From Arenicella sp. (GTDB lineage Bacteria; Pseudomonadota; Gammaproteobacteria; Arenicellales; Arenicellaceae): DNA of 24,000 nucleotides. The position numbers were made by a program, and so were the translations under genes. Every line of letters begins with the position of its first letter. Position 1 is the stretch's first letter. The notes below the pieces were generated by a model. That model was given only the letters and a program-made list of their open reading frames with translations. It had not been told where the DNA came from and did not search any database. The stretch covers positions 41,975-65,974 of the forward strand of contig JBLHXJ010000001.1 of the NCBI GenBank assembly GCA_047629535.1. The letters are read 5' to 3'. Shown here in pieces: positions 1-23,319 of this stretch.

Positions 1-1067
1 CGCTTGTAGTAATCGCAATTGTGGCGCTGGTAATCGCGCTATCGTTGTTTCCATCAGCACCCAATACCGAATTAACAGAAGTGGATAGCAGCCTCCCACC
101 AGCCGAAATTGTTCAAAAAGTTTTTGGCCCTATCCAGCCAATAAAAGCGGCTACCGATTTAGACCCTGAGAAAGTTTCTCTAGGTTCGCAATTATTCAGT
201 GACAATATACTGTCTGAAGATAATACCGTCTCCTGTGTAACTTGCCACAGTCTTGAGACCGCTGGTACTAACGGCTTGACCGTGTCGGTGGGCATTGCTG
301 GCGGCGTAAAGCACATCAATGTGCCAACCGTGTTTAATTCAGCGTTGAACTTTGTGCAATTTTGGGATGGCCGAGCAAAAACACTTGAAGAGCAGGTGAG
401 TGGCCCGGTCGAGCATCCGTTGGAGATGGGCTCTACTTGGCCCAGTGTAATTAGCCGCCTGAATGCCAATCGTAATTACCGAGAGCAATTTGCTGATCTC
501 TATACAGAAGGCGTATCAAAAGAGTCGGTTAGTCACGCGCTTGCTGAGTTTGAGCGCTCGCTAAATACACCAGATTCGCCCTTTGACCGGTATTTGAAAG
601 GTGATCTGAATGCTTTGGACGAGAAGCAATTGGCCGGTTATCAATTGTTTAAGCAGCTTGGCTGCATACGCTGTCACCAGGGGCAGGGTGTGGGCGGTAA
701 TATGTTTCAGCGAATGGGAGCTAAAAAAGACTACTTCGCTGGCCGCGATGATTTGACTGAGCACGACATGGGCCGCTTTAACGTGACCGGCGATGAGTAC
801 GATCGACATCGGTTTAAGGTCCCGAGCCTTCGTAATATTGCACTTACCGCACCGTACTTTCATGATAGTAGCGCAGCGACCCTGGAACAGGCTATCCAAA
901 CCATGGCGACCTACCAACTCGGTCGTCGCTTAAAAGATCAAGAAGAACAATTGTTAGTTAGCTTTTTAGAAAGCTTAACCGGCGAATACAAGGGCACTAA
1001 GCTAAGCCTTGGAGCCGTTTTTGAAACAGGCGCCGAGACAGGCGATCAAAACGGCAAAAAACTATGA
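1..1067 (+). CDS. Di-heme cytochrome c peroxidase / MauG-family protein (5' end probably off-window)
   Basis: The reading frame is open from the window edge. The ORF-track start at 21 is a GTG inside a hydrophobic signal-like stretch (..VVIAIVALVIALSLF) with no charged n-region, so the true start is probably upstream. Two CxxCH heme c motifs are present: CVTCH (nt 234-248) and CIRCH (nt 663-677). Family hallmarks FWDGRA, FKVPSLRNIALTAPYFHDSS and LEQAIQTMA are also present. Confidence 0.9.
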   Translation, partial: LVVIAIVALVIALSLFPSAPNTELTEVDSSLPPAEIVQKVFGPIQPIKAATDLDPEKVSLGSQLFSDNILSEDNTVSCVTCHSLETAGTNGLTVSVGIAGGVKHINVPTVFNSALNFVQFWDGRAKTLEEQVSGPVEHPLEMGSTWPSVISRLNANRNYREQFADLYTEGVSKESVSHALAEFERSLNTPDSPFDRYLKGDLNALDEKQLAGYQLFKQLGCIRCHQGQGVGGNMFQRMGAKKDYFAGRDDLTEHDMGRFNVTGDEYDRHRFKVPSLRNIALTAPYFHDSSAATLEQAIQTMATYQLGRRLKDQEEQLLVSFLESLTGEYKGTKLSLGAVFETGAETGDQNGKKL

Positions 1068-3199
1068 AAGCCCGAGCAGAATATATTATTGGTTCGGGCG
1101 TCATTTTTGTTGGCGTGCTGTTGATGGCATTCTTCTTTTGGAAGTCTGGCGCGATCGACGATACTCGTGAGCATCAGCGCTTTGTAGAAAGTGTCCGCCA
1201 TTTGCAGGCCAGCGATGCAATTCTCGATCAGCACCTTTTACGCTTGCGCAACGGCTCGGCGACTAGCGTTGATAATGTTAACCAAGAGTTAGTTGCGATC
1301 AGCCGATTGAATGCAATTATAGCTAGGCCGCCGGATTATATTTCGCCAAAAGGTACCGCGATTTTGATGGATATTTTGGCAAATTATCATCTGGTGATGG
1401 AGCGTAAGAAATTACTAATTGAGCGCTTTATGGCTGAAAATGCGAATCTTAAAACATCTATTGTGTATTATCCGATTTTGAGTCAAGAGCTGGTAGATAG
1501 CTTAGACGAGATTGAGCAAGGCCAACCTATTACCGAAAAAATACAGACGCTTTTGCGTGATATTTTATTGTTTAACCTTAATACCAACCCTGGTTTAGGT
1601 ATTTCAATTAAAAGCCAAATTGGTCGGCTCGATGCGGCTGGTCAAGCTTACCTCATAGGTGCAAACGCAACGAGCTTGAATTCGATTAGAGGAATTGAAG
1701 ATCTAAGCTTGCAGGGGCAAACGATTCTGCGGGTGAAGCCTGGAGTTGATTCGCTTATTACCGAACTAATGTCGATACCGATAACGGTTGAGCTCGAGAG
1801 CTTTGCAGACGAATACCACCGCTGGTATAGCTATGCGCTAGACAGTGCCAAGTTTTATCGTTTTTGTTTGTACTTTATGATTGTTCTGACAATCATAATT
1901 ATTTCCTGGATGATTATTCGAAACCTTAATGCCCGCATAAGGCGCGCGACCCAATCTATTGCACAACAACGCGATCAGTTAGTAGTCAAACTCGATGAGC
2001 GAAGGGCCCTATCTGAGGTGGCCATGGCGGTCAGTAGCGTTGGTGATCTGAACAAGGTATTAGATACCATATTAGCAAAGAGTCTTGAGGTGGTTGAGGT
2101 CGAAGCAAGCTCCATATTGTTGCTCGATAAAGAGAAAAATGATCTCTATTTTCATACCGTGCAGGGCCGAGTCTCTGACAATCTTAAAGATATACGCATC
2201 GCGTTAGGTCAAGGCTTGGTAGGGCATGTTGCTCAAAACGGCAAAACGGAGGTAGTTTCTGACCCTTATGCGGACCCACGTTTTAACCAACAGGTAGATA
2301 TTGCTACCGGCTTTGTTACCAAATCAATTCTGACAACACCGCTGGTAAGCCAGGATGAAATCATCGGCGTGTTACAGTTGGTAAACCGTCGGCAACAAGA
2401 GTCGTTTGATGATAACGACGTGCTACTAATTGAATCATTCGCGGTACAAGCCGGTATTGCAATCGTAAATTCGCGACTTTATTCCGACGTTAAAAATTAT
2501 GCCAACGACCTTAAAGAGTCTCTCGAAAAAGAACGAACCTTAAGAGTTCAGAAGCAGAAAATGGGTGCTTACATGCCTAAGGATGTGGTCGATCAGATAT
2601 CACGTAGCAGCGAAGAAAAAATCGCTCTTGGTGGTAAGGTAGTGCGCGCCACGATTATGTTCTCAGACATTGTTGGTTTCACCCGTTTGTCAGAACGCTT
2701 GGAACCAGAAAAAGTAGTCGATTTTTTAAATCTTTACATGACCGCGATGAGCAACATCATAGAACAAGAGGGTGGCATTGTAGATAAGTTCATTGGCGAT
2801 GGCATTATGGCCGTTTTTACTGACAGTGAAACTGAGCAGGCAATGGCGGCGGTGCAAGCGGGCTTGAGAATGCAAGCCGCGGTTCAGAGCGAACGAGAAA
2901 GCTGGGGTAGCATTGATCAAGATTTGGCTAAGGTGGAGATTCGTATTGGTATTAACTCCGGCCGAGTAATATCCGGTAATGTAGGGTCCGAACAACGAAT
3001 GGATTACACCGTGATTGGCGACAATGTAAATGTCGCAGCGCGAATCGAGCAAGCGTGTAATCCCGGCGAAGTACTTATTAGTCTATCTACTTTTGAAGAC
3101 GTCAAGCTGCGAGTTAAATCGACCGAAATGGAGCCAATTAAAGTGAAAAATCGAGATCAGGCTGTCCTAACTTATTCAGTCGACTCAGTGTTGTCTTAG
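1064..3199 (+). CDS. Membrane sensor protein: periplasmic helical domain - GAF - class III adenylate cyclase
   Basis: ATG 1064 overlaps the upstream TGA (ATGA at 1064-1067). Two predicted TM helices (aa ~8-27 and ~263-287) bracket a helical extracytoplasmic region of about 235 aa. A GAF-like region spans aa ~316-468 (nt ~2009-2467). The cyclase homology domain spans aa ~525-700 (nt ~2636-3163) and contains FSDIVGFT, DKFIGDGIMAVF and DYTVIGDNVNVAARIE (metal Asp, Asn/Arg). The Lys575/Thr648 pair suggests ATP as substrate (class IIIb-like). Confidence 0.9.
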   Translation: MKARAEYIIGSGVIFVGVLLMAFFFWKSGAIDDTREHQRFVESVRHLQASDAILDQHLLRLRNGSATSVDNVNQELVAISRLNAIIARPPDYISPKGTAILMDILANYHLVMERKKLLIERFMAENANLKTSIVYYPILSQELVDSLDEIEQGQPITEKIQTLLRDILLFNLNTNPGLGISIKSQIGRLDAAGQAYLIGANATSLNSIRGIEDLSLQGQTILRVKPGVDSLITELMSIPITVELESFADEYHRWYSYALDSAKFYRFCLYFMIVLTIIIISWMIIRNLNARIRRATQSIAQQRDQLVVKLDERRALSEVAMAVSSVGDLNKVLDTILAKSLEVVEVEASSILLLDKEKNDLYFHTVQGRVSDNLKDIRIALGQGLVGHVAQNGKTEVVSDPYADPRFNQQVDIATGFVTKSILTTPLVSQDEIIGVLQLVNRRQQESFDDNDVLLIESFAVQAGIAIVNSRLYSDVKNYANDLKESLEKERTLRVQKQKMGAYMPKDVVDQISRSSEEKIALGGKVVRATIMFSDIVGFTRLSERLEPEKVVDFLNLYMTAMSNIIEQEGGIVDKFIGDGIMAVFTDSETEQAMAAVQAGLRMQAAVQSERESWGSIDQDLAKVEIRIGINSGRVISGNVGSEQRMDYTVIGDNVNVAARIEQACNPGEVLISLSTFEDVKLRVKSTEMEPIKVKNRDQAVLTYSVDSVLS

Positions 3200-3323: not shown

Positions 3324-4169
3324 ATGAAAACACCGAAAAGACTATTGCCGCTGATTGAAGACGGCTTGGTCGACGAAGTCCTTGGTCAACTGATGAGTGG
3401 CAAAGAAGCCACTGTGTATATGGTGCGCTGTGGCTCCGAGGTTCGTTGTGCCAAAGTGTATAAAGAAGCCGCACAGCGAAGCTTCAAAAAAGCAGTGCAA
3501 TACCAAGAAGGCCGTCGTGTGCGTAATAGCCGCCGCGGCCGGGCAATGGAAAAGGGCTCTAAGTTTGGACGCGATCAACAAGAAGAAATTTGGCAAAGTG
3601 CCGAGGTAGACGCCTTATATAAACTTGCCGCCGCTGGGGTGCGAGTGCCAGAGCCCTACGGTTGCTTCAACGGTGTGCTGTTAATGGAGTTAATTACCGA
3701 TGAAGAAGGCTACGTAGCACCGCGTCTAAACGACGTGGAACTAAGCCCAGAACGAGCGCGGCGTGACCATGCCGTGGTTATGCAAGACGTTATTAAAATG
3801 TTATGCGTTGGCCTAATTCATGGCGACTTATCTGAATTTAATGTGTTGGTTGATGAAGTTGGCCCGGTAATTATCGACCTGCCACAAGCCGTTAACGCGG
3901 CGGGTAATAACAATGCAAAAGCCATGCTCGAACGAGACGTGCGCAACATGACTAACTACTATGGCCAATTCGCACCTGAATTACTCGAGAGCGAACACGC
4001 AAAAGAAATTTGGAAGCTCTATGAAAAAGGCGACCTCAAAGCAGATACTAAGCTCACGGGCATTGTCGAAATAGATACTCGCCCAGCTAATGTCGACTCA
4101 GTAATGCTAGAAATCAAAGCGGCTTTCGAAGAACAGGAAGAGCGTTTGCAGCGATTGAGTGATGATTAG
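3324..4169 (+). CDS. RIO-type serine protein kinase/ATPase
   Basis: 281-aa ORF. It has the RIO ATP-loop motif SGKEATVY, the catalytic loop LIHGDLSEFNVL and the metal-binding IIDLPQAV. An AT-rich 124-bp upstream spacer precedes it. Confidence 0.85.
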   Translation: MKTPKRLLPLIEDGLVDEVLGQLMSGKEATVYMVRCGSEVRCAKVYKEAAQRSFKKAVQYQEGRRVRNSRRGRAMEKGSKFGRDQQEEIWQSAEVDALYKLAAAGVRVPEPYGCFNGVLLMELITDEEGYVAPRLNDVELSPERARRDHAVVMQDVIKMLCVGLIHGDLSEFNVLVDEVGPVIIDLPQAVNAAGNNNAKAMLERDVRNMTNYYGQFAPELLESEHAKEIWKLYEKGDLKADTKLTGIVEIDTRPANVDSVMLEIKAAFEEQEERLQRLSDD

Positions 4170-4183
4170 CTATAAGGCTTTGT

Positions 4184-5698
4184 TTATTTTATTGTTGATC
4201 TCTTTTCATCTGTCACCCCGATTTTGCTTCTAACAATCTCCGACTCTTGCGGGCTGAGCTCGACACTTGCATCGATTATTTTTTCAAAATGTGCTGTATC
4301 CCAAGTGTTTTCGCCACTTAAGCAATAAACATAGAGCTCGGGAAAATCTTCAATTGCCAGTTGGTCTTCGATAAAAAGCGTTTCAATTAATTTTGAATCT
4401 TCGCCTTTGCGTTTACTGTCGTAGGCCATGTTCACTGGCAGAGCGTCTTTACGACATAATACGCTGCCTTCCCATAGTCGAATATTTGAGCAATATACTT
4501 TGTTATTTTCTCGTCGGTGGATTAACCAACGAGGTAAAACTGAGGCGGCCTTATTCTGTTTTAAGGCTGATTCTAATTGCCTTGAAAGACGTGTCGGATG
4601 ATACCAATCATCGTCATCCCACTGGCAAACGAACCGGCCCTTGGCCATTTCGATCGAAAAATTGCGCAAATCACCTAGGCTTTTCTTTGCTTCGATCGGC
4701 ACAACGTGATGCCTTATTTCTTTATTATTAAGGCCCTTCAAGAACTTGTGTGTTGCCGTGTCATCAGATTCGCTAATCACGACCAGCTCTTTATGTGAAT
4801 AGCTTTGTGCCTGAAAACAATCAATAGCGCGCTCTAATAGTGCTACCCGGCCACGGGTCACGCACAAACAGGATATTAGCGGGGCTGGAGAGTTTGACGA
4901 CGACGGCTTGTCGGCCAATCTATATTTTGTTTGCTGGGCGTTAGTGGTGATGTCCTTTTGTGCAATCGAACGATAAAACGATGGTGGCCGTTCGTAATAC
5001 AGGGTTAACAGTGAGAGGTTGCGTATATAGCTCTGGGGATCAATGCCGTTAGGCTCACTTGACTGATGCCACAAATGGTAGGCAATGCCCTTAAGTGTTG
5101 CCATTTTGGTAGCAAAAAAGGCTACCCGCTTGGACATGGCGTCGTCTTCTGCACCCCAGCCTTCAAAGCGTTCATCCATACCGCCCGTCGCGTGGTAAAG
5201 TCTTCGTGTAAGGGCGAACGCTCCTCCGCAGAAGGGGGGGTATTGGCCTATCGACTGTCGGTTTGTCTGTTGCCTTGTTCTATTAATATGCAGCGATTGT
5301 GTCTGCGCTAAAAGCTGTTGTGATTCCTCCTGGCTTAGGTCAACTAAAACGTCATACGGATTGATCGCGTCTACATCGTTGTTCATTTGTTGGCAAATCT
5401 CATCTAACGCAGCTGCGCTAATGAGCATGTCTGAATCGGCGAATACCAGCCGCTCACAGCTTGCATAATTAGCGGCGATGTTCAGCCCCCAGGATTTATT
5501 GAAGCGCCCAGAATTCTCAACAAATACATACTTGATGTTAGCTTGCTGTTGGTTTTTAAATTGAGGGGTAGCGTCTTGCTCGACGAGAATTATCTCTAAG
5601 CTTCGGTCGAGGCTGAGCTGCTGTAAAAGGAAGTGTAAGTTATGTTGCCGACCTTGATCAGATTGGCGATAGGTTATTAGGTAAGAGAAGCGATACAT
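4184..5698 (-). CDS. Two-domain glycosyltransferase: N-terminal beta-1,4-galactosyltransferase-like (GT7/Glyco_transf_7C-like) + C-terminal GT2
   Basis: N-domain (aa 1-~215): ILVEQD, RFNKSWGLNIAANYA, FADSDM (DxD) and FCGGAFALTRRLYHATGGMDERFEGWGAEDDAMSKR, which parallels the beta4GalT FGGVSAL...WGWGGEDDD block. C-domain (aa ~270-504): ISCLCVTRGR, ELVVISESDD, LGDLRNFSIEMAKGRFVCQWDDDDWYHP (classic GT2). No TM segment is evident. Confidence 0.85.
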   Translation of the reverse strand: MYRFSYLITYRQSDQGRQHNLHFLLQQLSLDRSLEIILVEQDATPQFKNQQQANIKYVFVENSGRFNKSWGLNIAANYASCERLVFADSDMLISAAALDEICQQMNNDVDAINPYDVLVDLSQEESQQLLAQTQSLHINRTRQQTNRQSIGQYPPFCGGAFALTRRLYHATGGMDERFEGWGAEDDAMSKRVAFFATKMATLKGIAYHLWHQSSEPNGIDPQSYIRNLSLLTLYYERPPSFYRSIAQKDITTNAQQTKYRLADKPSSSNSPAPLISCLCVTRGRVALLERAIDCFQAQSYSHKELVVISESDDTATHKFLKGLNNKEIRHHVVPIEAKKSLGDLRNFSIEMAKGRFVCQWDDDDWYHPTRLSRQLESALKQNKAASVLPRWLIHRRENNKVYCSNIRLWEGSVLCRKDALPVNMAYDSKRKGEDSKLIETLFIEDQLAIEDFPELYVYCLSGENTWDTAHFEKIIDASVELSPQESEIVRSKIGVTDEKRSTIK

Positions 5699-5855
5699 AT
5701 AAATTCTAATTAACGAGTTGCGTCGGGTTTACTGGCGTAAGACTATGCATAACAATATAACGGATAACCGTGTCCGAGTTCTATTAGAGTAAGATGGTTC
5801 ACAGTTGCGGGCAACCGCGTTCATTTCACTGATAATTTAAATTAAAAAGTACACT

Positions 5856-6512
5856 ATGAAACAAGCGCCATCTCCACAAGTATTGATTGGCACGCCTGCT
5901 TACAATGGCATGCTGCATACAGACTATCTGCATTCGATTCTTGGTTTTGTAAAAAATGACATCCCGCATGCGGTGATGACCATTGGTAATGAGAGTTTGA
6001 TCACTCGGGCCAGGAATACAATTTTGGCCAGTTTCTGGGAGGCCGACACGTTTACCCATCTACTTTTCCTTGATGCTGATGTGTTTCTTGACCATCAGGG
6101 CCTTAGCCAAATGCTTAGCCATAATAAAGATGTTGTTGGCGCGCCAGTTTATCTGAAAGGCAAGAACGCAGACGGCGAACAAACCGCAAATACAGATGCC
6201 AAACTGAATGTTCTGCCGGTGCTTCAATCAGTAACTAGAGTTGGCACCGCAGCACTGCTGCTATCACGTTCGGCGGTTAATTCTTTGGTCGCCCACGCAA
6301 TCAAGCAAGATCGGACCTACAGCATAAATAAGATGCTTCGACATGAAGGGATGGCAACCACCCACTACGATGTGTTCAGAGTGGGTATCTCTAATGACGA
6401 GTATTTATCAGAAGATTTTTGGCTTTGCAAAGAATTGCGAGAGCTGGGTCACGAAATTCACGTCGACACCTCGGTATACACTCGCCATAACGGTATGGTC
6501 TGCTTCGACTAG
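5856..6512 (+). CDS. Small putative GT-A fold glycosyltransferase
   Basis: 218-aa ORF. VLIGTPAYNG opens a Rossmann-like strand. It also has SLITRARNTILASF and HLLFLDADVFL (DxD). I cannot assign a CAZy family by eye. It is divergent from the 4184-5698 gene across a 157-bp spacer. Confidence 0.65.
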   Translation: MKQAPSPQVLIGTPAYNGMLHTDYLHSILGFVKNDIPHAVMTIGNESLITRARNTILASFWEADTFTHLLFLDADVFLDHQGLSQMLSHNKDVVGAPVYLKGKNADGEQTANTDAKLNVLPVLQSVTRVGTAALLLSRSAVNSLVAHAIKQDRTYSINKMLRHEGMATTHYDVFRVGISNDEYLSEDFWLCKELRELGHEIHVDTSVYTRHNGMVCFD

Positions 6513-6634
6513 CGCGGTCTTAATATGAGCGCTAGTCGGTAATCCGTGGACCAGTTTTTATAGCTGTACGCTGGAATAAATTTGCCCTAGGCTGATTCGT
6601 CTAGGGCAACGGCTTCGGCGTAAGAAAAACTGAC

Positions 6635-7486
6635 TTATGCCCAGCTAGACTTCGACAAGCTGAAATTAAACGCAACGTTTGAATTTGCTGGCATAGGCGT
6701 GGTTGGCATAGGCGTTGTTGGCATAGACGTGGTTGGCATAGACGTGGTTGGCATAGACGTAGACGTGGTAGTCGGTACGCCTGTAGTCGTTGGTGCAACA
6801 GTAGTCGTTGGTGCGCCTGTAGTCGTTGGTGCAACAGTAGTCGTTGGTGCCGCAGTGGTGGTTGCCACCGGCGCGCAAACTGGATCAGACGAAGAGACAG
6901 TAAATGCTCCAGTTTCACCTAAGCCACTAATGGAACCCGTAGCCGAAGTTGGCACAGTCGCGCTGTTAAGCGTTGCCGTCACTGTAAAGCCAGAGTGCAA
7001 ACCCACAACGCTTACTGCGGTGCCGTTAACAGAGCCTTTTTGAACATCAACTTCATTATTATTTAGAGTCAATGAAACGGTTGCAACGCCGGCTTCAAGT
7101 GTGAGCAGTACGCAACCGCCATTTAATACTGTAATGGGCGCTTCTTCGGCATATGCCTGACCAATGAAAATATCCAGAATATCGTTAACATCAACGCCGT
7201 CATTTTCAGCCTTGGATATCGATATGCCGCCGCCGCCGCCCATTACTACAACAGCAGCACTGGTTTGTGCATGGCTTGGAAGTATTACCGCGTCAAGTAA
7301 TGGCTTTTTCCATTTATCAGGGACTAAGCTAGTTGAAATAACCGCGCCGCCGCCAATTAAGGTATTTCTTAATACTGTACGTCTAGCATTCTTCTGCTCT
7401 ACACCAACAGCTAGCTCTTGTTGCTCAGCTGATTTAGACGAAGGTGTCGCTTCGCTACTCAATGAATCATTTGTATCTTTAGGCAT
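6635..7486 (-). CDS. Exported protein with twin-arginine-like signal and C-terminal Thr/Pro-rich mucin-like repeat tail
   Basis: The ORF is open to TTG 7549, but the first ATG is at 7486 (MPKDTND...), and using it removes the overlap with the divergent gene. ARRTVLRNTLIGGGAVISTSLV is followed by LPSHA|Q, a possible signal-peptidase site. A central region of about 130 aa is rich in Gly/Val/Thr and carries 2 Cys. The tail is APVATTTAAPTTTVAPTTTGAPTTTVAPTTTGVPTTTSTSMPTTSMPTTSMPTTPMPTTPMP (62 aa, 27 Thr), followed by ANSNVAFNFSLSKSSWA. Confidence 0.75.
   Translation of the reverse strand: MPKDTNDSLSSEATPSSKSAEQQELAVGVEQKNARRTVLRNTLIGGGAVISTSLVPDKWKKPLLDAVILPSHAQTSAAVVVMGGGGGISISKAENDGVDVNDILDIFIGQAYAEEAPITVLNGGCVLLTLEAGVATVSLTLNNNEVDVQKGSVNGTAVSVVGLHSGFTVTATLNSATVPTSATGSISGLGETGAFTVSSSDPVCAPVATTTAAPTTTVAPTTTGAPTTTVAPTTTGVPTTTSTSMPTTSMPTTSMPTTPMPTTPMPANSNVAFNFSLSKSSWA
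6689..6874 (-). repeat. In-frame coding tandem repeats (15-bp x5 and 36-bp x2) encoding the PT-rich tract
   Basis: The 15-bp units are at 6690-6704, 6705-6719, 6720-6734, 6735-6749 and 6750-6764 (ggcata[g/a][g/a]cgt[g/t]gtt; units 3 and 4 are identical). They encode MPTT(S/P). The 36-bp units at 6780-6815 and 6816-6851 match at 35 of 36 positions and encode (APTTTV/APTTTG). Confidence 0.95.
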
Positions 7487-7496
7487 TTTTAATACT

Positions 7497-7524
7497 TTGG
7501 CGGTAGTTAATATGGTCTTATAAT
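7497..7524 (+). promoter_or_regulatory. Candidate sigma70-type promoter for the GT32-FkbM / mega-GT operon
   Basis: TTGGCG (7497-7502), a 16-bp spacer, then a perfect TATAAT (7519-7524), about 95 nt upstream of ATG 7620. This is a pattern match only. Confidence 0.3.
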
Positions 7525-7570
7525 AACCCGAATAATAATTGGCTGCCAAGGGCTATAGGTTAACTTCTAG

Positions 7571-7591
7571 GCTACTCTTTGCTAGAGTAGC
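7571..7591. promoter_or_regulatory. Perfect 8-bp inverted repeat (operator or 5'-UTR hairpin candidate)
   Basis: gctactct (7571-7578), ttgct, agagtagc (7584-7591). It lies in the 133-bp divergent spacer between the PT-protein gene and the GT32-FkbM gene, 29 nt upstream of ATG 7620. Confidence 0.3.
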
Positions 7592-7619
7592 GGGAATATC
7601 CCTCCAGCACCGATTGATT

Positions 7620-9437
7620 ATGATTCCTAAAATTATCCACCAAACTTGGAAAACCGATCAGGTTCCAGAGCAGTGGAAGGCATTTGCCCAGTCATGGAAA
7701 TCGCATCACCCCGATTGGGAGTATCGGCTGTGGAGCAACGCTGATGGCGCTGAGTTTGTCGAACATTTCTATCCTCATTTCGAACAGACATATTGGTCCT
7801 ATCGATACGATATACAGCGCGCTGATGCGATTCGCTACCTAATAATTTATCATTATGGTGGTATCTATGCCGACCTTGATTTTGAATGCCTGCAATCATT
7901 TGAGAGCCTACGTGACAATCACAAGCTGGTTATCGGCTTTGAGCCTAAGGAGCATGCGCAGGCTCAATCATTGCAAGAAGTGTTATGCAATGCGTTATTC
8001 GCGTCAAAGCCTCGGTCAAAATTTTTAAAAGCCGTTATTGATTTTTTAATAGCGGACGACACTCCGACGATTGGACTTGGGGATGTATTGAGAACCTCTG
8101 GCCCAGTGATGTTGCAGAATGTGTATGAGCAATTTAATAAAAGTGACGTAGATGCTCATCCGCCGGTCCGCTTTTACCCGTTTGAAAATAATGCCCCAGA
8201 ATTAACCCAGCTAGCCAAAAATTCGGATGAAAGTGAACGCATAAGGCAAAAACTGATAGGTTTGGGTTGTTTTGCGGTGCACCACTGGGCAAATTCATGG
8301 ACCAAAGATTTGGCCGGTGAACTGATGAATCCGAGCGCCGATTCAGTTGAGGGGTTTGATTTTTATCCGATGTATGATTCACCTGGGATGGATTTATTTA
8401 ACGGTGGTAGAGAGGTCGCAGCACTTGCAGAACGATGCAGAGCTGATTCTCAGGTAGTAGCGTTCAATACCGATGGCTTTGCAAAGCACACTATCGCCTC
8501 AATATCTGATTTGAGCGTAATGTTAAACGCGAATCAAAATGAAGGGATATATATAAAAAGACCCATCGCTAACGCTAAAGAGGTTTTAGAGCAGCACGAG
8601 AATATGCAACTGGTCTATATTGCCGCTGCTGGCCCTCGGCCATTTAGTCTGTTTGTCGATCAAACCAACGATCTAGTAATTGCTCAGTTTATTGAGAGTA
8701 ACCGCATTTGGGAGCCGCTTGAAACCGCCTTAGTCAGCAAGTTAGTATCCCCAGGCGAAAACGTAATCGACATAGGAGCCAACATTGGCTATTTCACGGT
8801 ACTTTTTTCGCAACTAGTGGGCGAACAAGGCAAAGTGCTGGCGTTCGAACCGGAAGCAAAAAATTACTCTTTATTAAAGGCCAATATATTAATTAATCGC
8901 TTAGATAATGTGGTTATTGAAAATCAAGCGCTGTCCAATACTCAGGGAGTCGCTGATCTATACTTATCTAGTTACAATAAAGGTGATCATCGACTTGGCT
9001 ACACCGCCGGCCGAGAGAAGCAACAAATTAGCAGTATTGAGCTTGACCAATACCTGTCAGGCAACGCCCTGCCGATTCATTTTATTAAATCCGATACCCA
9101 AGGTCATGAGCTTAAAGTGCTGCAGGGTATGACCAAGTTAATTGAGCGAAATAGTGCATACTTATGCTGCTTGCTGGAATTCTCTCCAGGGTTATTGATC
9201 ACTGCAGAACCTAGAGGCGTTGAAGATTTTATCGATTTCTTTGACTTATTCGAGACCGAAATATATTTGATTCAGGAGGTGGCTCGGAACGCCGAATTAG
9301 TATTAATGGATAGCGCCGCATTGCGGCAACTGGCGCGCATAATGTTGCAGCACGAAGCGCAAGACCATTCCGTCAATACTTTAATTTTTTTTAGCACTAA
9401 CGCTCGAATCAAGTATTTCGCTAAAATGGGTTGGTGA
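7620..9437 (+). CDS. Fusion protein: GT32-type glycosyltransferase (Gly_transf_sug, DXD) - unassigned ~70-aa module - FkbM-family methyltransferase
   Basis: The ORF-track start at 7539 is a TTG. ATG 7620 gives MIPKIIHQTWKT, the canonical GT32 N-terminus. RADAIRYLIIYHYGGIYADLDFECL carries the DXD. The FkbM region (nt ~8616-9398) has VIDIGANIGYFTV, LAFEPEAKNYSLLKANI and IHFIKSDTQGHELKVLQGM. Its stop overlaps the next gene. Confidence 0.85.
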   Translation: MIPKIIHQTWKTDQVPEQWKAFAQSWKSHHPDWEYRLWSNADGAEFVEHFYPHFEQTYWSYRYDIQRADAIRYLIIYHYGGIYADLDFECLQSFESLRDNHKLVIGFEPKEHAQAQSLQEVLCNALFASKPRSKFLKAVIDFLIADDTPTIGLGDVLRTSGPVMLQNVYEQFNKSDVDAHPPVRFYPFENNAPELTQLAKNSDESERIRQKLIGLGCFAVHHWANSWTKDLAGELMNPSADSVEGFDFYPMYDSPGMDLFNGGREVAALAERCRADSQVVAFNTDGFAKHTIASISDLSVMLNANQNEGIYIKRPIANAKEVLEQHENMQLVYIAAAGPRPFSLFVDQTNDLVIAQFIESNRIWEPLETALVSKLVSPGENVIDIGANIGYFTVLFSQLVGEQGKVLAFEPEAKNYSLLKANILINRLDNVVIENQALSNTQGVADLYLSSYNKGDHRLGYTAGREKQQISSIELDQYLSGNALPIHFIKSDTQGHELKVLQGMTKLIERNSAYLCCLLEFSPGLLITAEPRGVEDFIDFFDLFETEIYLIQEVARNAELVLMDSAALRQLARIMLQHEAQDHSVNTLIFFSTNARIKYFAKMGW

Positions 9438-12400
9438 GTATCAACGGTATAAAATACTATTCCATGCTTGAGTCATCCGGCTATGGACTGTCTGCGATTA
9501 GCTATTTGAATGCGTTGCTTGACCTCGAGTGCCCAATACATTGGATTCCACTGGTCTTGGGCGAGCGAGGTTACCAACCATGGTATCAATCGACATCGGC
9601 CGAGCAGCAAGTTCGCCAATTGCTGATCGAGTGTCTGACTGACGACAGTCAAATAGACAGACTGATGGCGTGTCTAGAGCCGATTAACAACTATCAATGC
9701 ATATTCATGCATACCGTGCCGGAGTATTGGCCTCATCTTAAAGAGCCCAATAAATATCAAATCGGCTATAGCGTGTGGGAGACTAGTTGCCTACCTAAGC
9801 ATTTTCCTGAGCTCATCAATCAGCTTGACCGAGTGCTAGTACCCAGCACATTTAATCGACCGATATACGAGCGTTCGGGGGTTGAGATTCCGATAGACGT
9901 GGTGCCGCATATTCTAAATAAGCCCGCGCCTGCGGCTAAGGCGACCGTCGATACTATGCGTAGCTTGATTGAGGTTGCGCCAGAAAACTACCTCTTCTAT
10001 TGCATCAATGAATGGACCGCTCGCAAGGCGCTATGGGTTTTGGTTGACGCCTATCTAAGCAGCTTTAGTGCTGATGACTCGGTGTCTTTAGTACTAAAAA
10101 CATCGGCTCGAGGCCCGCGATCGGAAACCGATGCAGACCAGTACGACACACAACTATTGGTGGCACAAATAGCTGCTGGCTATACTGCACCTGCGCATAT
10201 TAAAGTGATTAATCATAAAATCACTAACCCTGAGATCACCGCATTACACCAACTTGGCGATTGCTTTGTCTCTACCAGTCGTAGCGAAGGCTGGGGCTTG
10301 GGTATGTTTGAAGCTGCGGGAATGGGTAACCCGGTGATTGCTACCGGCTGGGGCGGGCATCTCGATTTTCTTACAGAGCAGTCGAGCTATCTGTCATCCT
10401 ATCAATTGACTCAAGTGGTGGATACTCAAGCTGAATCGTCCTACAGTAGCGAACAACAGTGGGCTCAAGTTGATCAAACAAGTATCTCTAAGCATTTAAA
10501 AACGGTGTTCGCCAATCCTCAATTAGCGCAGCAAAACGCTCAAGATTTGGCTCTAGAGCTAAATGAAAAGTATAATTCAGCACAGCTTGGTATACAGCTC
10601 TATAAAGCAATTATGGCAACTAACATCCCCAAGATTTTTCATTTTATATTCGGTTTGAAAGAACAAACTGAGCCGTTTCATCTGGCCTACTATCTTTGTT
10701 TAAAATCCTGCCTCGAGGTTAACAAGCCGAGCGCGCTACATTTTTACTATCATTACCAACCTTATGGTGAATACTGGGAGTTGATAAAACCTCACCTGAC
10801 GCTAATCGAAGTAGAGTTGGAATCTTTTGTAAAACACAATAACGCCTACCAAGATCACCAAGAAGGTCAGTTTATCAAGGCCGCTAAACTCGATTATGCG
10901 CATCAAGCGGATTTTATCCGCTTAAAAAAATTGATAGAATACGGTGGTGTTTATGCTGACATGGACACCCTATTTGTAAACCCAATACCGGATGATCTGT
11001 ATCAGCATCCGTTTGTGATAGGCCGTGAACAGAGTGTTATCGACCCCGTAAGCAAGAAAAAAAATCCGTCATTGTGCAACGCGCTGCTGATGTCCGAACC
11101 CAATTCAGAGTTCGCGCGCCAATGGCTAAAGGCTAGTTATCAATCGTTTGACGGAACCTGGAGTTCGCACTCGTGCCAGTTAGCGGCGACACTTGCAAGC
11201 GAGTTGCCCGATACGGTGCACATTGCGCCGCAACGTTTCTTCTTCAAGCACATGTGGACAAAGCCGGGTATTAGCTCGTTATTTGAAGAGCTTGATGATG
11301 ACTTCGAGCAAGTCTATAGCATGCATATGTGGAACCATCTGTGGTGGGACCAATCGAGAGTAGACTTTTCGAGTTTTCATCAAGGCTTGATCACCGAACA
11401 AAATATTATGACGGTAGATACCACTTATAATGTTATCGCCAGACAATTTTTACCAACAGCAAGTAAGGCAACAACTAGCCCAATTAACAAAGAGCCCTCT
11501 GAAAAATTGAAAAATTCATCCTCATCAATCTTGATTCCAGTAATAGAAGTTAGTTGGGAACTTTCTCAAGAGCAAGGTTCCAGCCGCTTTTCCAATACTC
11601 AAACGGGCCATTCCTTCGCCACTAACGAAACTACAAATTTAATTCTTCAACAGTGCGATGGAATTAAAAATGTTGACGCTATCATTGATTCGCTGAGTGA
11701 GCGCTTTGGTGATGATTTCGACAGTATAGGGCATGATGTTAAAACTACTTTGCGCGAACTAGCTTTGAGTGGCGCGATTCGATTTAAACAAATCACACCG
11801 GCTCTACCAGTTGTTCAGCCCACGCCGCCCGAGGCACCCTCAAAGCAGTACAAGTTGTGTATTGGCATGGCCACCTACGATGACTATGACGGTGTCTACT
11901 TTTCGGTGCAGGCGATGCGAATGTATCACCCAGAAATATTGGAGCATGTAGAGTTTTTAGTGCTCGACAACAACCCCACAGGCGTTTGCGCCGACGCGCT
12001 AAAAAACCTTGGTGATTGGATCCCAAACTATCGTTATATTGAAGGCGATAATTTCCAAGGAACCTGGTCTCGATTTTCCTTGATTAACCAAACTAACGCT
12101 CCGTATATTTTGTGTATGGATTCGCACGTGATGGTTTTACCCGGAGCGATTAAGCAACTGTTGGATTATATCGACATTCACCCCGACACACCCGACATGC
12201 TGCAAGGGCCACTAGTGGCCGATGATTTGTTTTCCTTGTCATCGCATTTTACGCCCGGCTGGGGTAGTGGCATGTATGGCAAATGGGCAACAGATTCAAG
12301 AGCGGAAGATCTCGACAACCCTGGGTTTGATATCCCAATGCAAGGGCTTGGTTTGTTTGCCTTTCGCAAAGATAGCTGGCCGCAAGTAAACTCACGCTTT

Positions 12401-13309
12401 AAAGGGTTTGGCGGCGAAGAGGGCTATGTGCATGAGAAAGTTCGGCGTGCCGGTGGGCGAACATTATGTCTACCATTTTTACGCTGGGTACACCGCTTTA
12501 ACCGACCGATGGGCACGCGCTATGCGCTCAGTTGGCATGATCGCATTCGCAACTATATGGTCGCGCATGACGAACTGGATGTTGATAATAGCGAGATGAT
12601 TGAACACTTCAATTCGTTTATAGGCGAGGCCGAAACCGCAACAATAGTTGCCGATGTTGAAGCTGAAATTAACAATCCATTCTACTTTTTTGATGCTATT
12701 TACTGTATCAACTTAGATCGACAAGAAGAACGATGGAAGACCGCACAGGCACAATTCGATAAGCTTGGCATTACCCATCGAGTTCAGCGTTTTTCCGCTA
12801 TTGAAACACCCGAAAATCACCATATAGGGTGTGCCTTGTCACACCGAGCAATTATTCAAATGGCATCGGTCAATAAGCACAAAAATGTATTGGTGTTAGA
12901 AGATGATGTGATCTTCGATGCGGCCACACTGACTGATCTTGCAAATAGCCTGGATGAGGCAAAAGCCGAAAGCTGGGATGTATTATATTTAGGTGGACAT
13001 TGTTGGGACAAGCGATATCCACTTGTAAGTGGGCGTGAACATTTAAGAGAACTGGTCAGTGGCGAAGTTGGGCCAACCACAACCCATGCGATTGTCTATG
13101 GCGATTCCAGTTATTCGCAACTGCTTAATGATCTTCCCGAGACTATCGCGCAGATGACAAGCGCCATTGATCAAGGGTGGTTAGCGATTGATCAGTATTT
13201 GGCCGTTGAGACAACGCTAAGAAAGCTGATAACCGAACCTAGAGTGGCAAGTCAGCCACCGCTTCTTATCCAAGAAGAAGATAGCTTTACACCGATACTT
13301 TCGGCATAG
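9431..13309 (+). CDS. 1292-aa multi-domain glycosyltransferase: GT4 - GT32 - PqqD-like - DxH GT-A (GT2/GT27-like) - GT25
   Basis: The start is TTG 9431 or GTG 9434, overlapping the upstream TGA (9435-9437). ATG 9464 would delete the first beta-strand IKYYS. GT4 (aa 1-~392): EX7E in SRSEGWGLGMFEAAGMGNPVIATGWGG (nt 10286-10312). GT32 (aa ~397-672): IPKIFHFIFG and ADFIRLKKLIEYGGVYADMDTLF. PqqD-like: aa ~704-786. GT-A (aa ~806-1045): FLVLDNNP, CMDSHV (nt 12119-12127), GFGGEEGY and WVHRF. GT25 (aa ~1085-1280): AIYCINLDRQEERW, GCALSHRA and VLVLEDDVIF. No TM segment is evident. Confidence 0.85.
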   Translation: MVSINGIKYYSMLESSGYGLSAISYLNALLDLECPIHWIPLVLGERGYQPWYQSTSAEQQVRQLLIECLTDDSQIDRLMACLEPINNYQCIFMHTVPEYWPHLKEPNKYQIGYSVWETSCLPKHFPELINQLDRVLVPSTFNRPIYERSGVEIPIDVVPHILNKPAPAAKATVDTMRSLIEVAPENYLFYCINEWTARKALWVLVDAYLSSFSADDSVSLVLKTSARGPRSETDADQYDTQLLVAQIAAGYTAPAHIKVINHKITNPEITALHQLGDCFVSTSRSEGWGLGMFEAAGMGNPVIATGWGGHLDFLTEQSSYLSSYQLTQVVDTQAESSYSSEQQWAQVDQTSISKHLKTVFANPQLAQQNAQDLALELNEKYNSAQLGIQLYKAIMATNIPKIFHFIFGLKEQTEPFHLAYYLCLKSCLEVNKPSALHFYYHYQPYGEYWELIKPHLTLIEVELESFVKHNNAYQDHQEGQFIKAAKLDYAHQADFIRLKKLIEYGGVYADMDTLFVNPIPDDLYQHPFVIGREQSVIDPVSKKKNPSLCNALLMSEPNSEFARQWLKASYQSFDGTWSSHSCQLAATLASELPDTVHIAPQRFFFKHMWTKPGISSLFEELDDDFEQVYSMHMWNHLWWDQSRVDFSSFHQGLITEQNIMTVDTTYNVIARQFLPTASKATTSPINKEPSEKLKNSSSSILIPVIEVSWELSQEQGSSRFSNTQTGHSFATNETTNLILQQCDGIKNVDAIIDSLSERFGDDFDSIGHDVKTTLRELALSGAIRFKQITPALPVVQPTPPEAPSKQYKLCIGMATYDDYDGVYFSVQAMRMYHPEILEHVEFLVLDNNPTGVCADALKNLGDWIPNYRYIEGDNFQGTWSRFSLINQTNAPYILCMDSHVMVLPGAIKQLLDYIDIHPDTPDMLQGPLVADDLFSLSSHFTPGWGSGMYGKWATDSRAEDLDNPGFDIPMQGLGLFAFRKDSWPQVNSRFKGFGGEEGYVHEKVRRAGGRTLCLPFLRWVHRFNRPMGTRYALSWHDRIRNYMVAHDELDVDNSEMIEHFNSFIGEAETATIVADVEAEINNPFYFFDAIYCINLDRQEERWKTAQAQFDKLGITHRVQRFSAIETPENHHIGCALSHRAIIQMASVNKHKNVLVLEDDVIFDAATLTDLANSLDEAKAESWDVLYLGGHCWDKRYPLVSGREHLRELVSGEVGPTTTHAIVYGDSSYSQLLNDLPETIAQMTSAIDQGWLAIDQYLAVETTLRKLITEPRVASQPPLLIQEEDSFTPILSA
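11540..11788 (+). other. PqqD-like (RiPP-recognition-element-like) domain embedded in the mega-glycosyltransferase
   Basis: EVSWELSQEQGSSRFSNTQTGHSFATNETTNLILQQCDGIKNVDAIIDSLSERFGDDFDSIGHDVKTTLRELALSGAIRF follows the PqqD-family pattern (x-LNetaaxIwxlxDGxxtvxeIvxxLxxxy...DVxxfLxxLxxxGli). It is flanked by Ser/Thr/Pro-rich linkers. Confidence 0.6.
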
Positions 13310-22064: not shown

Positions 22065-23315
22065 TCAGCGGTTCGCCGTTAATACGCCTTCAAGATAGTC
22101 TAATGCATTGGGGTCATTCGACTGGCCTAGCCAAAAGAAAGCTTCTTTTTTTACCGACCTCTCGGTTGCGGTTTCAATCAGTTCGCTTAGCGCCGGTGTT
22201 GATTGGCTTGATTTTAATTGCGCTAATGCGAAGACTGCTTTTTTCTTGATTGACGCGGGGCCTTTGCCCTTTGCCAAAGCCATTAAAATTGACACAGGGT
22301 TTTCATCTTCATTTTGTGAGAGCCAGAAAATAGCTTGCTGCTGCACTTCACTATCGGCGGGATTTTGTGCCAACTTAATTAGCTGCTGCCAGCTTGCCTT
22401 GGTGCTTATTTGTGCCAATGAAAAAACGGCTTTCTTTCGTACATAATTGTTGTCACTATTTTGCAAGATATAGTCGATTACATTAGCCGCCTTTGAGTTG
22501 TAATTCTGAGCCAGCCAAAACACCGATTCGGCCTGAATTTCTTGATTATCGCTGTGCATAGCAAGCTGCACTAATTTTTCAGATGAACTTTCATCGCTGT
22601 TTACACTTAATGCAAAAACCGCCTTGAGCCCCGCTGTATGGTCTCTCGCGTTGTCATCAACAATGCTTAATAGCGATTCATAGCCCGCCCTATTTCTGGC
22701 TTGGCCAAGCCAGAATATCGATTCATGTTTTAGCTTTTTGGAATCACTCTCTGTGAATCTCTCGAGCAATTTATGGGCGTCACTACCCTGATGCAATGCA
22801 ATCGCCGCCAAGGCCGAATGCCCCACTTGCGTGCTCTTTGTGTCTCTTTCAGCAAGCCCTTTGAGAAACAAAATACTTGGCTTTTGTGCGACGCCATTTA
22901 TTCTGTAAACAAGATTGCTGCCGGTCTTTACCTTGCATTCGCTGCCGGCCAAGAAAAGATCTGAAGCTTCGCCGCGGTTGATCTTGAAATAGACATTCAG
23001 CACTTTCGAATCTACCGACTGGCTGATAGAAGAAGACCAATTATTAGTTCTATTGTCGAGGCTGCAACTCGATTCGGTATCGCTTATTAGGCAGCAGGGC
23101 ATACCGTTATTAGCTTCCATCGCCACTTGATAGCTAAACCATTTGCCGTTGCTATCAGCGACTGCGCCGATGGTCTTGGCTATACTGTGTTGCAACTCTA
23201 TGACTTGTTGCTTGCTGCTCAATAGCTTGGTCTCGGCATTCGATGGTAGTGCCGTTAGTAATAGTGAAAGCGCGAACGCTTCTGCAATGATACTGAATAC
23301 TTTTAAATTGCGCAT
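22065..23315 (-). CDS. Periplasmic HEAT-repeat protein with Cys-containing N-terminal domain
   Basis: ATG 23315 lies 8 nt after GAGGA and gives the signal peptide MRNLKVFSIIAEAFALSLLLTALPSNA|E. The ORF-track start at 23330 is a GTG. The C-terminal ~230 aa alternates FWL(G/A/S)Q and (K)AVF(A/S)L(A/S)x helices: ESIFWLGQ, LKAVFALSV, ESVFWLAQ, KKAVFSLAQ, QAIFWLSQ, KKAVFALAQ, EAFFWLGQ. Confidence 0.8.
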   Translation of the reverse strand: MRNLKVFSIIAEAFALSLLLTALPSNAETKLLSSKQQVIELQHSIAKTIGAVADSNGKWFSYQVAMEANNGMPCCLISDTESSCSLDNRTNNWSSSISQSVDSKVLNVYFKINRGEASDLFLAGSECKVKTGSNLVYRINGVAQKPSILFLKGLAERDTKSTQVGHSALAAIALHQGSDAHKLLERFTESDSKKLKHESIFWLGQARNRAGYESLLSIVDDNARDHTAGLKAVFALSVNSDESSSEKLVQLAMHSDNQEIQAESVFWLAQNYNSKAANVIDYILQNSDNNYVRKKAVFSLAQISTKASWQQLIKLAQNPADSEVQQQAIFWLSQNEDENPVSILMALAKGKGPASIKKKAVFALAQLKSSQSTPALSELIETATERSVKKEAFFWLGQSNDPNALDYLEGVLTANR

Positions 23316-23319
23316 TGGT

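What the first reader, a model, noticed from the sequence alone, without database searches (positions are those of the whole stretch)
4184..13309. Compact island of ~8 glycosyltransferase domains wrapped around a mucin-like exported protein: candidate dedicated protein O-glycosylation system
Seen in sequence: four GT-bearing polypeptides (504, 218, ~605 and 1292 aa) surround, on both sides, a single gene whose product ends in a 62-aa tract that is 44% Thr with regularly spaced Pro. None of the four has an obvious TM helix. Together they carry about eight GT catalytic domains and one FkbM methyltransferase. The substrate-like gene shares a 133-bp divergent control region with the GT32-FkbM/mega-GT operon. 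Absent from the window: Wzx/Wzy/Wzz, ABC or OPX exporters, an undecaprenyl-phosphate priming transferase and nucleotide-sugar synthesis genes. Established knowledge: bacteria do glycosylate specific proteins in the cytoplasm with dedicated GTs encoded next to the substrate. Examples are HMW1C/HMW1, GtfA/GtfB with serine-rich-repeat adhesins, and Aah/TibC heptosyltransferases with autotransporters. Pro/Thr repeats are the classical acceptor for mucin-type O-glycosylation. Inference: this locus builds a multi-sugar, possibly methylated, O-glycan directly on the PT tail. I do not know of this domain combination (GT7-like, GT2, GT32 x2, GT4, DxH GT-A, GT25, FkbM, PqqD-like) as a described system.
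Basis: partly seen in the sequence, partly recalled or inferred. Interest (0 to 1): 0.88.

Follow-up and report, generated by a model that had tools for sequence, protein, structure and literature searches.

The report
Leader-guided glycosylation of a Thr-rich protein
A cluster of sugar-attaching enzymes in an uncultured marine bacterium (Arenicella-like) probably finds its one protein target through a conserved N-terminal tag. The tag is bound by a peptide-docking domain of the kind used to build ribosomal peptide natural products, so the system seems to tag whole exported proteins for glycosylation the way those pathways tag small peptides.

Summary
Window 4184-13309 carries five genes. Four code for glycosyltransferases, with no membrane helices, about eight GT domains in all, and one FkbM methyltransferase. 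The fifth gene (6635-7486, minus strand, 283 aa) codes for a protein that ends in a 62-aa tract that is 43.5% Thr, with Pro at regular spacing.

The 1292-aa GT protein contains a PqqD-type RiPP recognition element (RRE), the domain that binds precursor peptides in ribosomal peptide (RiPP) pathways. The Thr-rich protein starts with a conserved leader. The leader has an invariant twin-arginine motif, a W-x-K-P motif that matches the W/YxxP sequence bound by PqqD-group RREs, and an AxA-type junction (P-x-H-A|Q-T). Leader proteins sit next to RRE-containing GT2-GT25 enzymes in many distant bacteria. In 101 genomes of the Arenicellales order, all 46 that have leader proteins also encode PqqD-type RREs. 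The parts after the leader are enriched in Thr tracts.

Best reading: a RiPP-like system in which the RRE recruits a leader-tagged protein to a cytoplasmic set of glycosyltransferases. They probably O-glycosylate its Thr-rich stalk before export, likely through Tat. None of this has been tested by experiment.

The parts
4184..5698 (-). 504-aa protein with two GT-A glycosyltransferase domains (GT2_2/GT7C-like N-half, GT2 C-half)
   Evidence: Pfam PF00535 E 1.7e-20, PF10111 E 2.3e-15; conserved in syntenic loci L003-L008
5856..6512 (+). 218-aa small GT-A-like glycosyltransferase
   Evidence: weak Pfam GT21/Anp1; 80-89% identical, syntenic homologs in L003-L008
6635..7486 (-). Substrate protein (283 aa): leader + beta-rich domain with 2 invariant Cys + (PTTT)n stalk + invariant C-terminal motif
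   Evidence: family alignment A3 of 11 homologs; AF2 model: leader and stalk disordered, beta strands 124-198
7262..7486 (-). N-terminal leader (about residues 1-75): Tat-like RRxphiLK motif, Gly-rich h-region, RRE-docking W-x-K-P motif, AxA-type junction PSHA|QT
   Evidence: A2 alignment of 23 leaders: invariant R,R,W,P,P,H,A; 4495 library representatives; TIGR01409 Tat signal borderline hit on a homolog
6689..6874 (-). Thr/Pro-rich stalk (62 aa, 43.5% Thr), encoded by tandem DNA repeats (15-bp and 36-bp units)
   Evidence: PTTT-type tract conserved across family (A3)
6635..6688 (-). Invariant C-terminal motif after the stalk (P-N-S-N-x-x-F-N-F-S-L-S-K-S-x-W-S)
   Evidence: invariant in 10/11 homologs; function unknown
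7487..7619 (.). 133-bp divergent intergenic region between substrate gene and GT32-FkbM/mega-GT operon
   Evidence: ATG starts supported by homolog alignment; promoter scan not above chance
7620..9437 (+). 605-aa GT32 glycosyltransferase fused to FkbM methyltransferase
   Evidence: PF04488 E 4.1e-22, PF05050 E 7.4e-17, TIGR01444 E 4.9e-29
9431..13309 (+). 1292-aa multi-GT protein: GT4 (GT-B) ~1-400, GT32 ~420-600, PqqD-type RRE ~700-790, GT2 ~800-1000, GT25 ~1050-1292 (TTG start; alternative ATG 9464)
   Evidence: Pfam hits; RRE HMM hit residues 687-789; the RRE-GT2-GT25 core is conserved in ~80 loci across phyla
11528..11830 (+). PqqD-family RRE domain of the mega-GT (residues 700-800)
   Evidence: PF05402 E 6.3e-8; aligns with discrete RRE proteins of L076/L077 (A1)

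Best explanation
This is a leader-guided system, working like a RiPP pathway, that glycosylates one dedicated protein.

1. The substrate (6635-7486) is made with an N-terminal leader. The leader carries a conserved W-x-K-P motif, which the PqqD-type RRE domain of the 1292-aa GT protein is predicted to bind.
2. Docking on the RRE brings the protein to a cytoplasmic set of glycosyltransferases. These are the four GT domains of the mega-protein, the GT32-FkbM protein, the double GT2 protein and the small GT-A. None has a membrane helix. They build a glycan, probably with several sugars and possibly methylated by FkbM, most likely O-linked to the Thr residues of the (A/V)PTTT stalk.
3. The leader also has a Tat-type twin-arginine motif and ends in an AxA site. 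So the modified, folded protein is probably exported by Tat, and signal peptidase cuts after P-S-H-A. What is released would be an exported glycoprotein: a beta-rich domain with a conserved disulfide-capable Cys pair, a glycosylated Thr stalk and a conserved C-terminal motif.

Shown by tools: the gene anatomy, the domains, the conserved leader motifs, the co-occurrence of leaders with RREs and GTs, and the Thr enrichment. Inferred: RRE-leader binding (only weak support from a model), glycosylation, its sites, and export.
For: Gene content and domains:
- The RRE domain is part of the GT protein (PF05402 E 6.3e-8).
- Synteny of all five genes is kept in the Arenicella-like loci L003, L004, L005, L006 and L008.

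The leader:
- Alignment A2 of 23 leaders from varied taxa has invariant R-R, W, P, P, H and A.
- The W-x-K-P element matches the W/YxxP recognition sequence of PqqD-group RREs and the KPxWxxP motif shown by binding assays for StsC (PMC12710340).

Co-occurrence of leaders with RREs and GTs:
- In loci found through the GT protein, leader proteins co-occur with an RRE (odds ratio 16, p 2e-6). The RRE is fused to the GT protein or is a discrete PqqD protein next to it (L076/L077).
- Across 101 Arenicellales genomes, 46/46 with leader proteins encode PqqD RREs, against 12/55 without (p about 1e-17). 24/25 genomes that have the RRE-GT2-GT25 module also have leader proteins.
- Starting from the leader rather than the GT, one leader protein picked from the library (P0013) is encoded right after a GT2 gene.

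The part after the leader:
- In 187 leader proteins it carries Thr tracts (at least 8 Thr in 20 aa) in 30%, against 0-0.5% of background ORFs. A PTTT-type motif occurs in 33% against 2%.
- The stalk is encoded by tandem repeats whose length differs between homologs.

Export:
- The GTs have no transmembrane segments.
- TatC is present in the genome.
- The substrate has 2 invariant Cys in its beta-domain, consistent with an oxidising, extracytoplasmic home.

Model of binding: weak support (0.32 against a best control of 0.00; partner pLDDT at least 48; at least 88% agreement of contacts between runs).
Against: - No glycosylation, binding or export has been measured.
- The complex model gives only weak support and no interface.
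- The structure model of the substrate is poor (mean pLDDT 45).
- Leader proteins also occur without this GT module: 22 leader-positive Arenicellales genomes lack it, and two of the window genome's three leader proteins lie in other loci. One of these (C94) lies next to a discrete RRE, a nucleotidyltransferase and a methyltransferase. So the leader is not specific to glycosylation.
- Some leader proteins have hardly any mature part (e.g. a 51-aa protein ending QTTK). This fits small RiPP-like products better than exported glycoproteins.
- Genomes are related, so the co-occurrence tests overstate significance.
- The Tat assignment rests on motif likeness and a borderline TIGR01409 hit. No signal-peptide predictor was run.
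Confidence: 0.55

Rival explanations
1. An ordinary LPS outer-core, lipooligosaccharide or capsule glycan locus. The glycosyltransferases (GT25 is typical of LOS GTs such as LgtB/LpsA) add sugars to lipid-linked acceptors, and the Thr-rich protein is an unrelated neighbour.
For: GT25, GT4, GT32 and FkbM families are common in LPS and capsule loci (established knowledge). 48 of 80 loci that have the GT2-GT25 module have neither a leader protein nor an RRE.
Against: There is a PqqD-type RRE in the GT protein. Leader and RRE co-occur strongly, and synteny with the substrate is conserved. Lipid-linked glycan loci usually carry export or polymerase genes, and none are present here, though lipid-A-core additions need none nearby.
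Confidence: 0.1
2. A RiPP natural-product pathway. A leader-bearing precursor is glycosylated under RRE guidance, and its Thr-rich core is then cut off to give a small secreted glycopeptide, as with glycocins. The window's 283-aa precursor would be an unusually large member.
For: The RRE, the conserved leader with an RRE motif and the junction motif fit RiPP logic. Many leader proteins in the family are 51-110 aa with short Thr/Pro-rich cores.
Against: There is no dedicated protease or transporter in the cluster. The window's substrate has a conserved beta-domain with invariant Cys and an invariant C-terminal motif. Those features argue for a functional protein rather than a peptide fragment.
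Confidence: 0.15
3. The leader is only a twin-arginine (Tat) signal peptide. Its link to RREs reflects shared ancestry, and the RRE-GT acts on some other substrate.
For: The RR-x-phi-L-K motif and the AxA cleavage motif are Tat-like. There is a borderline TIGR01409 hit, and TatC is present.
Against: A generic Tat signal would not keep an invariant W-x-x-P element across thousands of clusters. Nor would it track PqqD RREs in every one of 46 genomes.
Confidence: 0.1
4. The leader, docked on the RRE, directs modification, but the substrate stays in the cytoplasm. The AxA junction is cut, if at all, by a cytoplasmic protease, and the glycoprotein does its work inside the cell.
For: The GTs are cytoplasmic. 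Tat export has not been shown.
Against: The invariant Cys pair and the RR motif fit export better.
Confidence: 0.1

Closest known systems
RRE-dependent RiPP biosynthesis (PqqD/PqqA; lasso peptides FusE/McjB; sactipeptide StsC/StsA)
   Same: A PqqD-family RRE domain, fused or discrete, is encoded next to a precursor whose leader carries a W-x-x-P docking motif. Leader-guided modification by enzymes coded alongside.
   Different: Here the modifying enzymes are glycosyltransferases and an FkbM methyltransferase. The substrate in this window is a 283-aa protein with a folded domain, not a short peptide. The leader has a Tat-like twin-arginine motif and an AxA signal-peptidase-type junction. There is no dedicated protease.
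Glycocins (sublancin/SunS, glycocin F/GccA)
   Same: Ribosomally made, leader-bearing substrates glycosylated by GT-A (GT2) enzymes coded alongside.
   Different: Glycocins are S- or O-glycosylated small peptides with a single GT. Here there are about 8 GT domains, an RRE and a protein-sized substrate with a Thr stalk. I did not test whether glycocin GTs carry RREs.
Dedicated cytoplasmic glycosylation of secreted proteins (HMW1C/HMW1; GtfA-GtfB/serine-rich-repeat adhesins; TibC/Aah)
   Same: Cytoplasmic GTs are encoded next to their single protein substrate. The substrate has repetitive Ser/Thr-rich acceptor regions and is glycosylated before export.
   Different: Here the substrate is picked out through an RRE and a leader motif. 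The GT families differ (GT2, GT25, GT32, GT4-conflict rather than GT41 or GtfA-type). The export route would be Tat rather than two-partner secretion, SecA2 or Sec.
Mucin-type and linker O-glycosylation (e.g. Pro/Thr linkers of cellulolytic bacteria)
   Same: Pro/Thr-rich stalks are classical O-glycan acceptors.
   Different: No O-GalNAc-type GT (GT27) is present. The machinery here is bacterial, cytoplasmic and guided by the leader.

Membership tests
RRE-dependent RiPP pathway | RRE domain in a modifying enzyme | tested here: met
   PF05402 in mega-GT residues 723-781; local RRE HMM hit 687-789
RRE-dependent RiPP pathway | Precursor encoded nearby, with a conserved leader carrying an RRE recognition motif | tested here: met
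   Invariant W-x-x-P in A2; the motif class matches PqqD-group RREs (PMC12710340); adjacency in many loci
RRE-dependent RiPP pathway | RRE binds the leader | tested here: inconclusive
   Complex model: weak support, 0.32 against a best control of 0.00, no interface given
RRE-dependent RiPP pathway | Dedicated leader protease or transporter in the cluster; small peptide product | tested here: not met
   No protease or transporter in the window. The window's substrate is 283 aa with a folded domain. Some family members are small.
Dedicated cytoplasmic protein-glycosylation system (HMW1C/GtfAB/TibC kind) | GTs without transmembrane segments, encoded next to a single protein substrate | tested here: met
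   No TM windows; conserved synteny
Dedicated cytoplasmic protein-glycosylation system (HMW1C/GtfAB/TibC kind) | Substrate has Ser/Thr-rich acceptor repeats | tested here: met
   62-aa stalk with 43.5% Thr; family-wide Thr enrichment
Dedicated cytoplasmic protein-glycosylation system (HMW1C/GtfAB/TibC kind) | GT homologous to HMW1C (GT41), GtfA or TibC | tested here: not met
   The Pfam/NCBIfam families found are GT2, GT25, GT32, GT4-conflict and GT21-like
Dedicated cytoplasmic protein-glycosylation system (HMW1C/GtfAB/TibC kind) | Glycosylation of the substrate demonstrated | not testable with these tools
   Needs co-expression and mass spectrometry
LPS/LOS/capsule glycan locus | Wzx/Wzy/Wzz or ABC exporter, priming transferase, nucleotide-sugar genes | tested here: not met
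   None in the 24-kb window
LPS/LOS/capsule glycan locus | LOS-type GT25 glycosyltransferase | tested here: met
   PF01755 in the mega-GT
Tat-exported protein | Twin-arginine motif, h-region, AxA cleavage site; TatC in genome | tested here: inconclusive
   Invariant RR with a Tat-like RRx-phi-LK context and a P-x-H-A junction. TIGR01409 hit is borderline. TatC is present. No signal-peptide predictor was run.

The most novel reading that the evidence does not exclude
The leader is a general docking tag for proteins in Arenicellales and relatives. It is found on 4495 library clusters and in 46/101 Arenicellales genomes, always alongside PqqD-type RREs. Different RRE-partnered enzyme sets use it to modify exported proteins after translation: here about 8 GTs plus FkbM; at C94 in this genome a nucleotidyltransferase plus a methyltransferase. 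On this reading, RiPP logic has been turned from peptide natural products to tagging whole proteins for glycosylation and other modifications before Tat export.
Probability: 0.35. Interest if true: 0.85.

Novelty: new variant of a known kind. Interest (0 to 1): 0.7.

Why it matters
If true, this would be a way of choosing which protein gets glycosylated that has not been described. A peptide-docking domain from RiPP biosynthesis reads a short leader motif (W-x-K-P) on a whole protein, and a battery of cytoplasmic glycosyltransferases then decorates it before export. That would link two fields that are usually separate: RiPP natural products and bacterial protein glycosylation. It would also explain how several GTs with no membrane anchor can be aimed at one substrate. 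The leader motif is a ready handle for genome mining. The system would be a portable tag: one could swap leaders, test modification, and use it to glycosylate chosen proteins. The strong link between leader proteins and RREs in Arenicellales genomes points to a wider, unrecognised protein-modification platform in marine bacteria.

Tried and rejected
- AlphaFold2 model of the substrate, using an 11-row alignment: too low in confidence (mean pLDDT 45) for a fold search, so I did not run one.
- ESM Atlas search of the mature region: no usable hits.
- Literature searches: no description of GT4-conflict. No paper holding twin-arginine + RiPP + glycosyltransferase + leader peptide. No direct RRE-glycosyltransferase system in the RRE/glycosylation papers found. 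The RRE paper only notes that RREs fused to GT2 exist (PMC12710340).
- Promoter and terminator scan: counts at chance level, so no claim on the divergent control region.
- A single-sequence phmmer search for PqqD was too insensitive. I replaced it with a profile HMM built from alignment A1.
- The model of the RRE-leader complex gave only weak support. I report it with its control and do not count it as a finding.
- Two Pfam calls were mistyped beyond a locus end and were re-sent correctly.
Full report
What is in the window. The window is G000:C1:41975-65974 of a 2.68-Mb, 268-contig, ~73%-complete genome with 46.5% GC. Its closest relatives are Arenicella MAGs (Gammaproteobacteria, Arenicellales) at 76-79% identity to the 1292-aa GT protein. 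The finding's coordinates hold five genes:
- 4184-5698 (-), 504 aa: two GT-A domains (GT2_2 with GT7C at the N-terminus, GT2 at 281-404).
- 5856-6512 (+), 218 aa: weak GT21/Anp1-like hit.
- 6635-7486 (-), 283 aa: the substrate candidate, starting at the ATG that homologs share.
- 7620-9437 (+), 605 aa: GT32 (Gly_transf_sug, E 4e-22) plus FkbM methyltransferase (E 5e-29).
- 9431-13309 (+), 1292 aa: GT4-conflict (245-382), GT32 (465-524), PqqD (723-781), GT2 (813-919) and GT25 (1131-1178).

The domain count (about 8 GT domains, one FkbM, one PqqD) is confirmed. No GT has a hydrophobic segment long enough to be a transmembrane helix. The 62-aa tail of the substrate is 43.5% Thr with Pro at regular spacing, and it is encoded by tandem DNA repeats of 15 and 36 bp. 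The intergenic region between the divergent substrate gene and the GT32-FkbM gene is 7487-7619, i.e. 133 bp. The window holds no exporters, polymerases, priming transferases or nucleotide-sugar genes.

Conserved unit. Five Arenicella-like loci keep all five genes in the same order (L003, L004, L005, L006, L008). Three of them have the big GT gene split into several ORFs. The substrate family (alignment A3, 11 members) has four parts:
- an N-terminal leader;
- a beta-rich domain with two invariant Cys (AlphaFold2: strands 124-198; leader and tail disordered; mean pLDDT 45);
- a (PTTT)n stalk that varies in length;
- an invariant C-terminal motif, PNSNxxFNFSLSKSxWS.
The search for homologous proteins found only about 7 close relatives, all 'hypothetical protein'.

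Key new observation: the leader. Its N-terminal ~65 aa form a conserved motif across distant taxa (alignment A2, 23 sequences). Invariant positions are R-R, W, P, P, H and A, giving the pattern RRx-phi-LK...G-x-G...P-x-K-W-x-K-P-V-V-x-S-V-I-L-P-A-H-A|Q-T-S. A profile built from it finds 4495 cluster representatives at E at most 1e-3 in a 1.84-billion-protein library, mostly at protein N-termini.
- The RR-x-phi-L-K part and the AxA-type junction look like a Tat signal. One homolog gives a borderline TIGR01409 hit, and TatC is encoded in the genome.
- The W-x-K-P part matches the W/YxxP recognition sequence of PqqD-group RREs. For StsC, binding assays support an extended KPxWxxP motif (PMC12710340, read).

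The 1292-aa GT protein carries exactly such a PqqD-family RRE.

Co-occurrence tests.
(a) In the 80 loci found through the GT protein in genome contigs, I used a leader HMM and an RRE HMM built from alignment A1. Leader and RRE co-occur: 22 loci have both, 3 have only a leader, 17 only an RRE, 38 neither (odds ratio 16, p 2e-6). Many distant loci pair small leader proteins (80-250 aa) with a GT2-GT25 protein that carries a fused RRE (L016, L042, L044, L056). In L076 and L077 a discrete 87-aa PqqD-like protein sits right before the GT2-GT25 gene.
(b) In 101 Arenicellales genomes, all 46 genomes with leader proteins encode PqqD RREs, against 12 of 55 without leaders (p about 1e-17). 24 of 25 genomes with the RRE-GT2-GT25 module also have leader proteins. 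These genomes are related, so the p-values overstate.
(c) In 400 sampled Pseudomonadota genomes the leader was found only in this genome, so the system is patchy and mostly in uncultured lineages.
(d) Going the other way, from leader to GT: one 76-aa leader protein from the library is encoded right after a GT2 gene. Another, of 320 aa, is not near a GT.

The window genome has two more leader proteins. The one on C94 lies about 1.3 kb from a discrete PqqD RRE, an NTP_transf_5 nucleotidyltransferase and a Methyltransf_4. The leader therefore seems to be a general RRE-docking tag used by several enzyme sets, not one kept for glycosylation.

Parts after the leader. Across 187 leader proteins, 30% have a Thr-dense window (at least 8 Thr in 20 aa) against 0-0.5% of background ORFs. 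A PTTT-type motif occurs in 33% against 2%, and the median Thr fraction is 0.14 against 0.05. Thr/Pro-rich stalks are classical O-glycan acceptors (established knowledge, e.g. bacterial linker and SRR-adhesin glycosylation).

Interface modelling. An ESMFold2 complex of the RRE alignment (A1) with the leader alignment (A2) gave weak support: score 0.32 against a best control of 0.00, partner pLDDT at least 48, at least 88% agreement of contacts between runs, and no interface reported. By the tool's own calibration such a pass is more often wrong than right unless the pairing was already likely, so it adds little.

Interpretation. The most economical model works like a RiPP pathway but acts on a protein:
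1. The RRE of the mega-GT docks on the W-x-K-P leader of the substrate.
2. Cytoplasmic GT domains build a glycan, probably on the Thr stalk. With eight GT domains of four families plus FkbM, it may have several sugars and be methylated.
3. The modified protein is probably exported through Tat and cut after P-S-H-A, giving an exported glycoprotein.

Shown: the anatomy, the conserved motifs, the co-occurrence with RREs and GTs, and the Thr enrichment. Inferred: binding, glycosylation, sites and export.

Rivals:
- An LPS/LOS glycan locus with a neighbour that is there by chance. Weakened by the RRE and the co-occurrence statistics.
- A small glycopeptide RiPP. Plausible for the tiny family members, but unlikely for this 283-aa, domain-bearing substrate.
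- A purely Tat signal that happens to co-occur with RREs.
- A modified protein that stays in the cytoplasm.

Comparison with known kinds. In mechanism this works like RRE-guided RiPP modification (PqqD/PqqA, StsC/StsA) and like dedicated cytoplasmic glycosylation of secreted proteins (HMW1C/HMW1, GtfA/B with SRR adhesins, TibC). It is not a member of either family as defined: no leader protease, a protein rather than a peptide substrate, and GT families other than HMW1C, GtfA or TibC. Nor is it an LPS/capsule locus: no exporter or polymerase genes are present. I rate it a new variant of a known kind. The most novel reading not excluded is a general leader-tag/RRE platform for modifying exported proteins in Arenicellales.

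Noticed in passing:
- MbnH/MauG-like di-heme peroxidase at 21-1067.
- DAHL-GAF-adenylate cyclase at 1064-3199.
- RIO kinase at 3324-4169, conserved beside the cluster in L003.
- Na+/H+ antiporter fused to a cNMP-binding domain at 17045-19603.
- HEAT-repeat proteins at 22065-23898.
- On C126 of the same genome, a PqqD RRE paired with an NTP_transf_5 protein.

Noticed in passing
window 21-1067 (+): Di-heme cytochrome c peroxidase of the MbnH/MauG kind (TIGR04039 MbnH family; 'His-Xaa-Ser system-associated MauG-like'). These enzyme families modify peptides in other systems.
   Followed up: no
window 1064-3199 (+): Adenylate/guanylate cyclase with a DAHL sensor domain and a GAF domain.
   Followed up: no
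window 17045-19603 (+): Na+/H+ exchanger fused to a C-terminal cyclic-nucleotide-binding domain; possibly the cAMP/cGMP effector of the nearby cyclase.
   Followed up: no
G000 contig C94: 3244-4878 (+) and 5009-8149 (L084): A second leader-tagged protein (544 aa) lies about 1.3 kb from a discrete PqqD RRE, an NTP_transf_5 nucleotidyltransferase and a Methyltransf_4: a second RRE-leader system apparently with other enzymes.
   Followed up: partly
G000 contig C126: 6830-8182 (L086): A discrete PqqD RRE next to an NTP_transf_5 protein, with no leader protein beside them. It may act in trans on the third leader protein (C26: 9103-9849, -).
   Followed up: partly
window 6635-6688 (-) and homologs (alignment A3): An invariant C-terminal motif (PNSNxxFNFSLSKSxWS) follows the Thr stalk in all close homologs; its role is unknown.
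   Followed up: no
L004, L005, L006 (homologs of window 9431-13309): In three related MAG contigs the big GT gene is split into 2-3 ORFs: either assembly frameshifts or pseudogenes.
   Followed up: no
library representatives P0050 and P0092: Some leader proteins are tiny (51-64 aa), with only a few residues after the P-A-H-A junction. This fits a RiPP-peptide branch of the family, or gene fragments.
   Followed up: no
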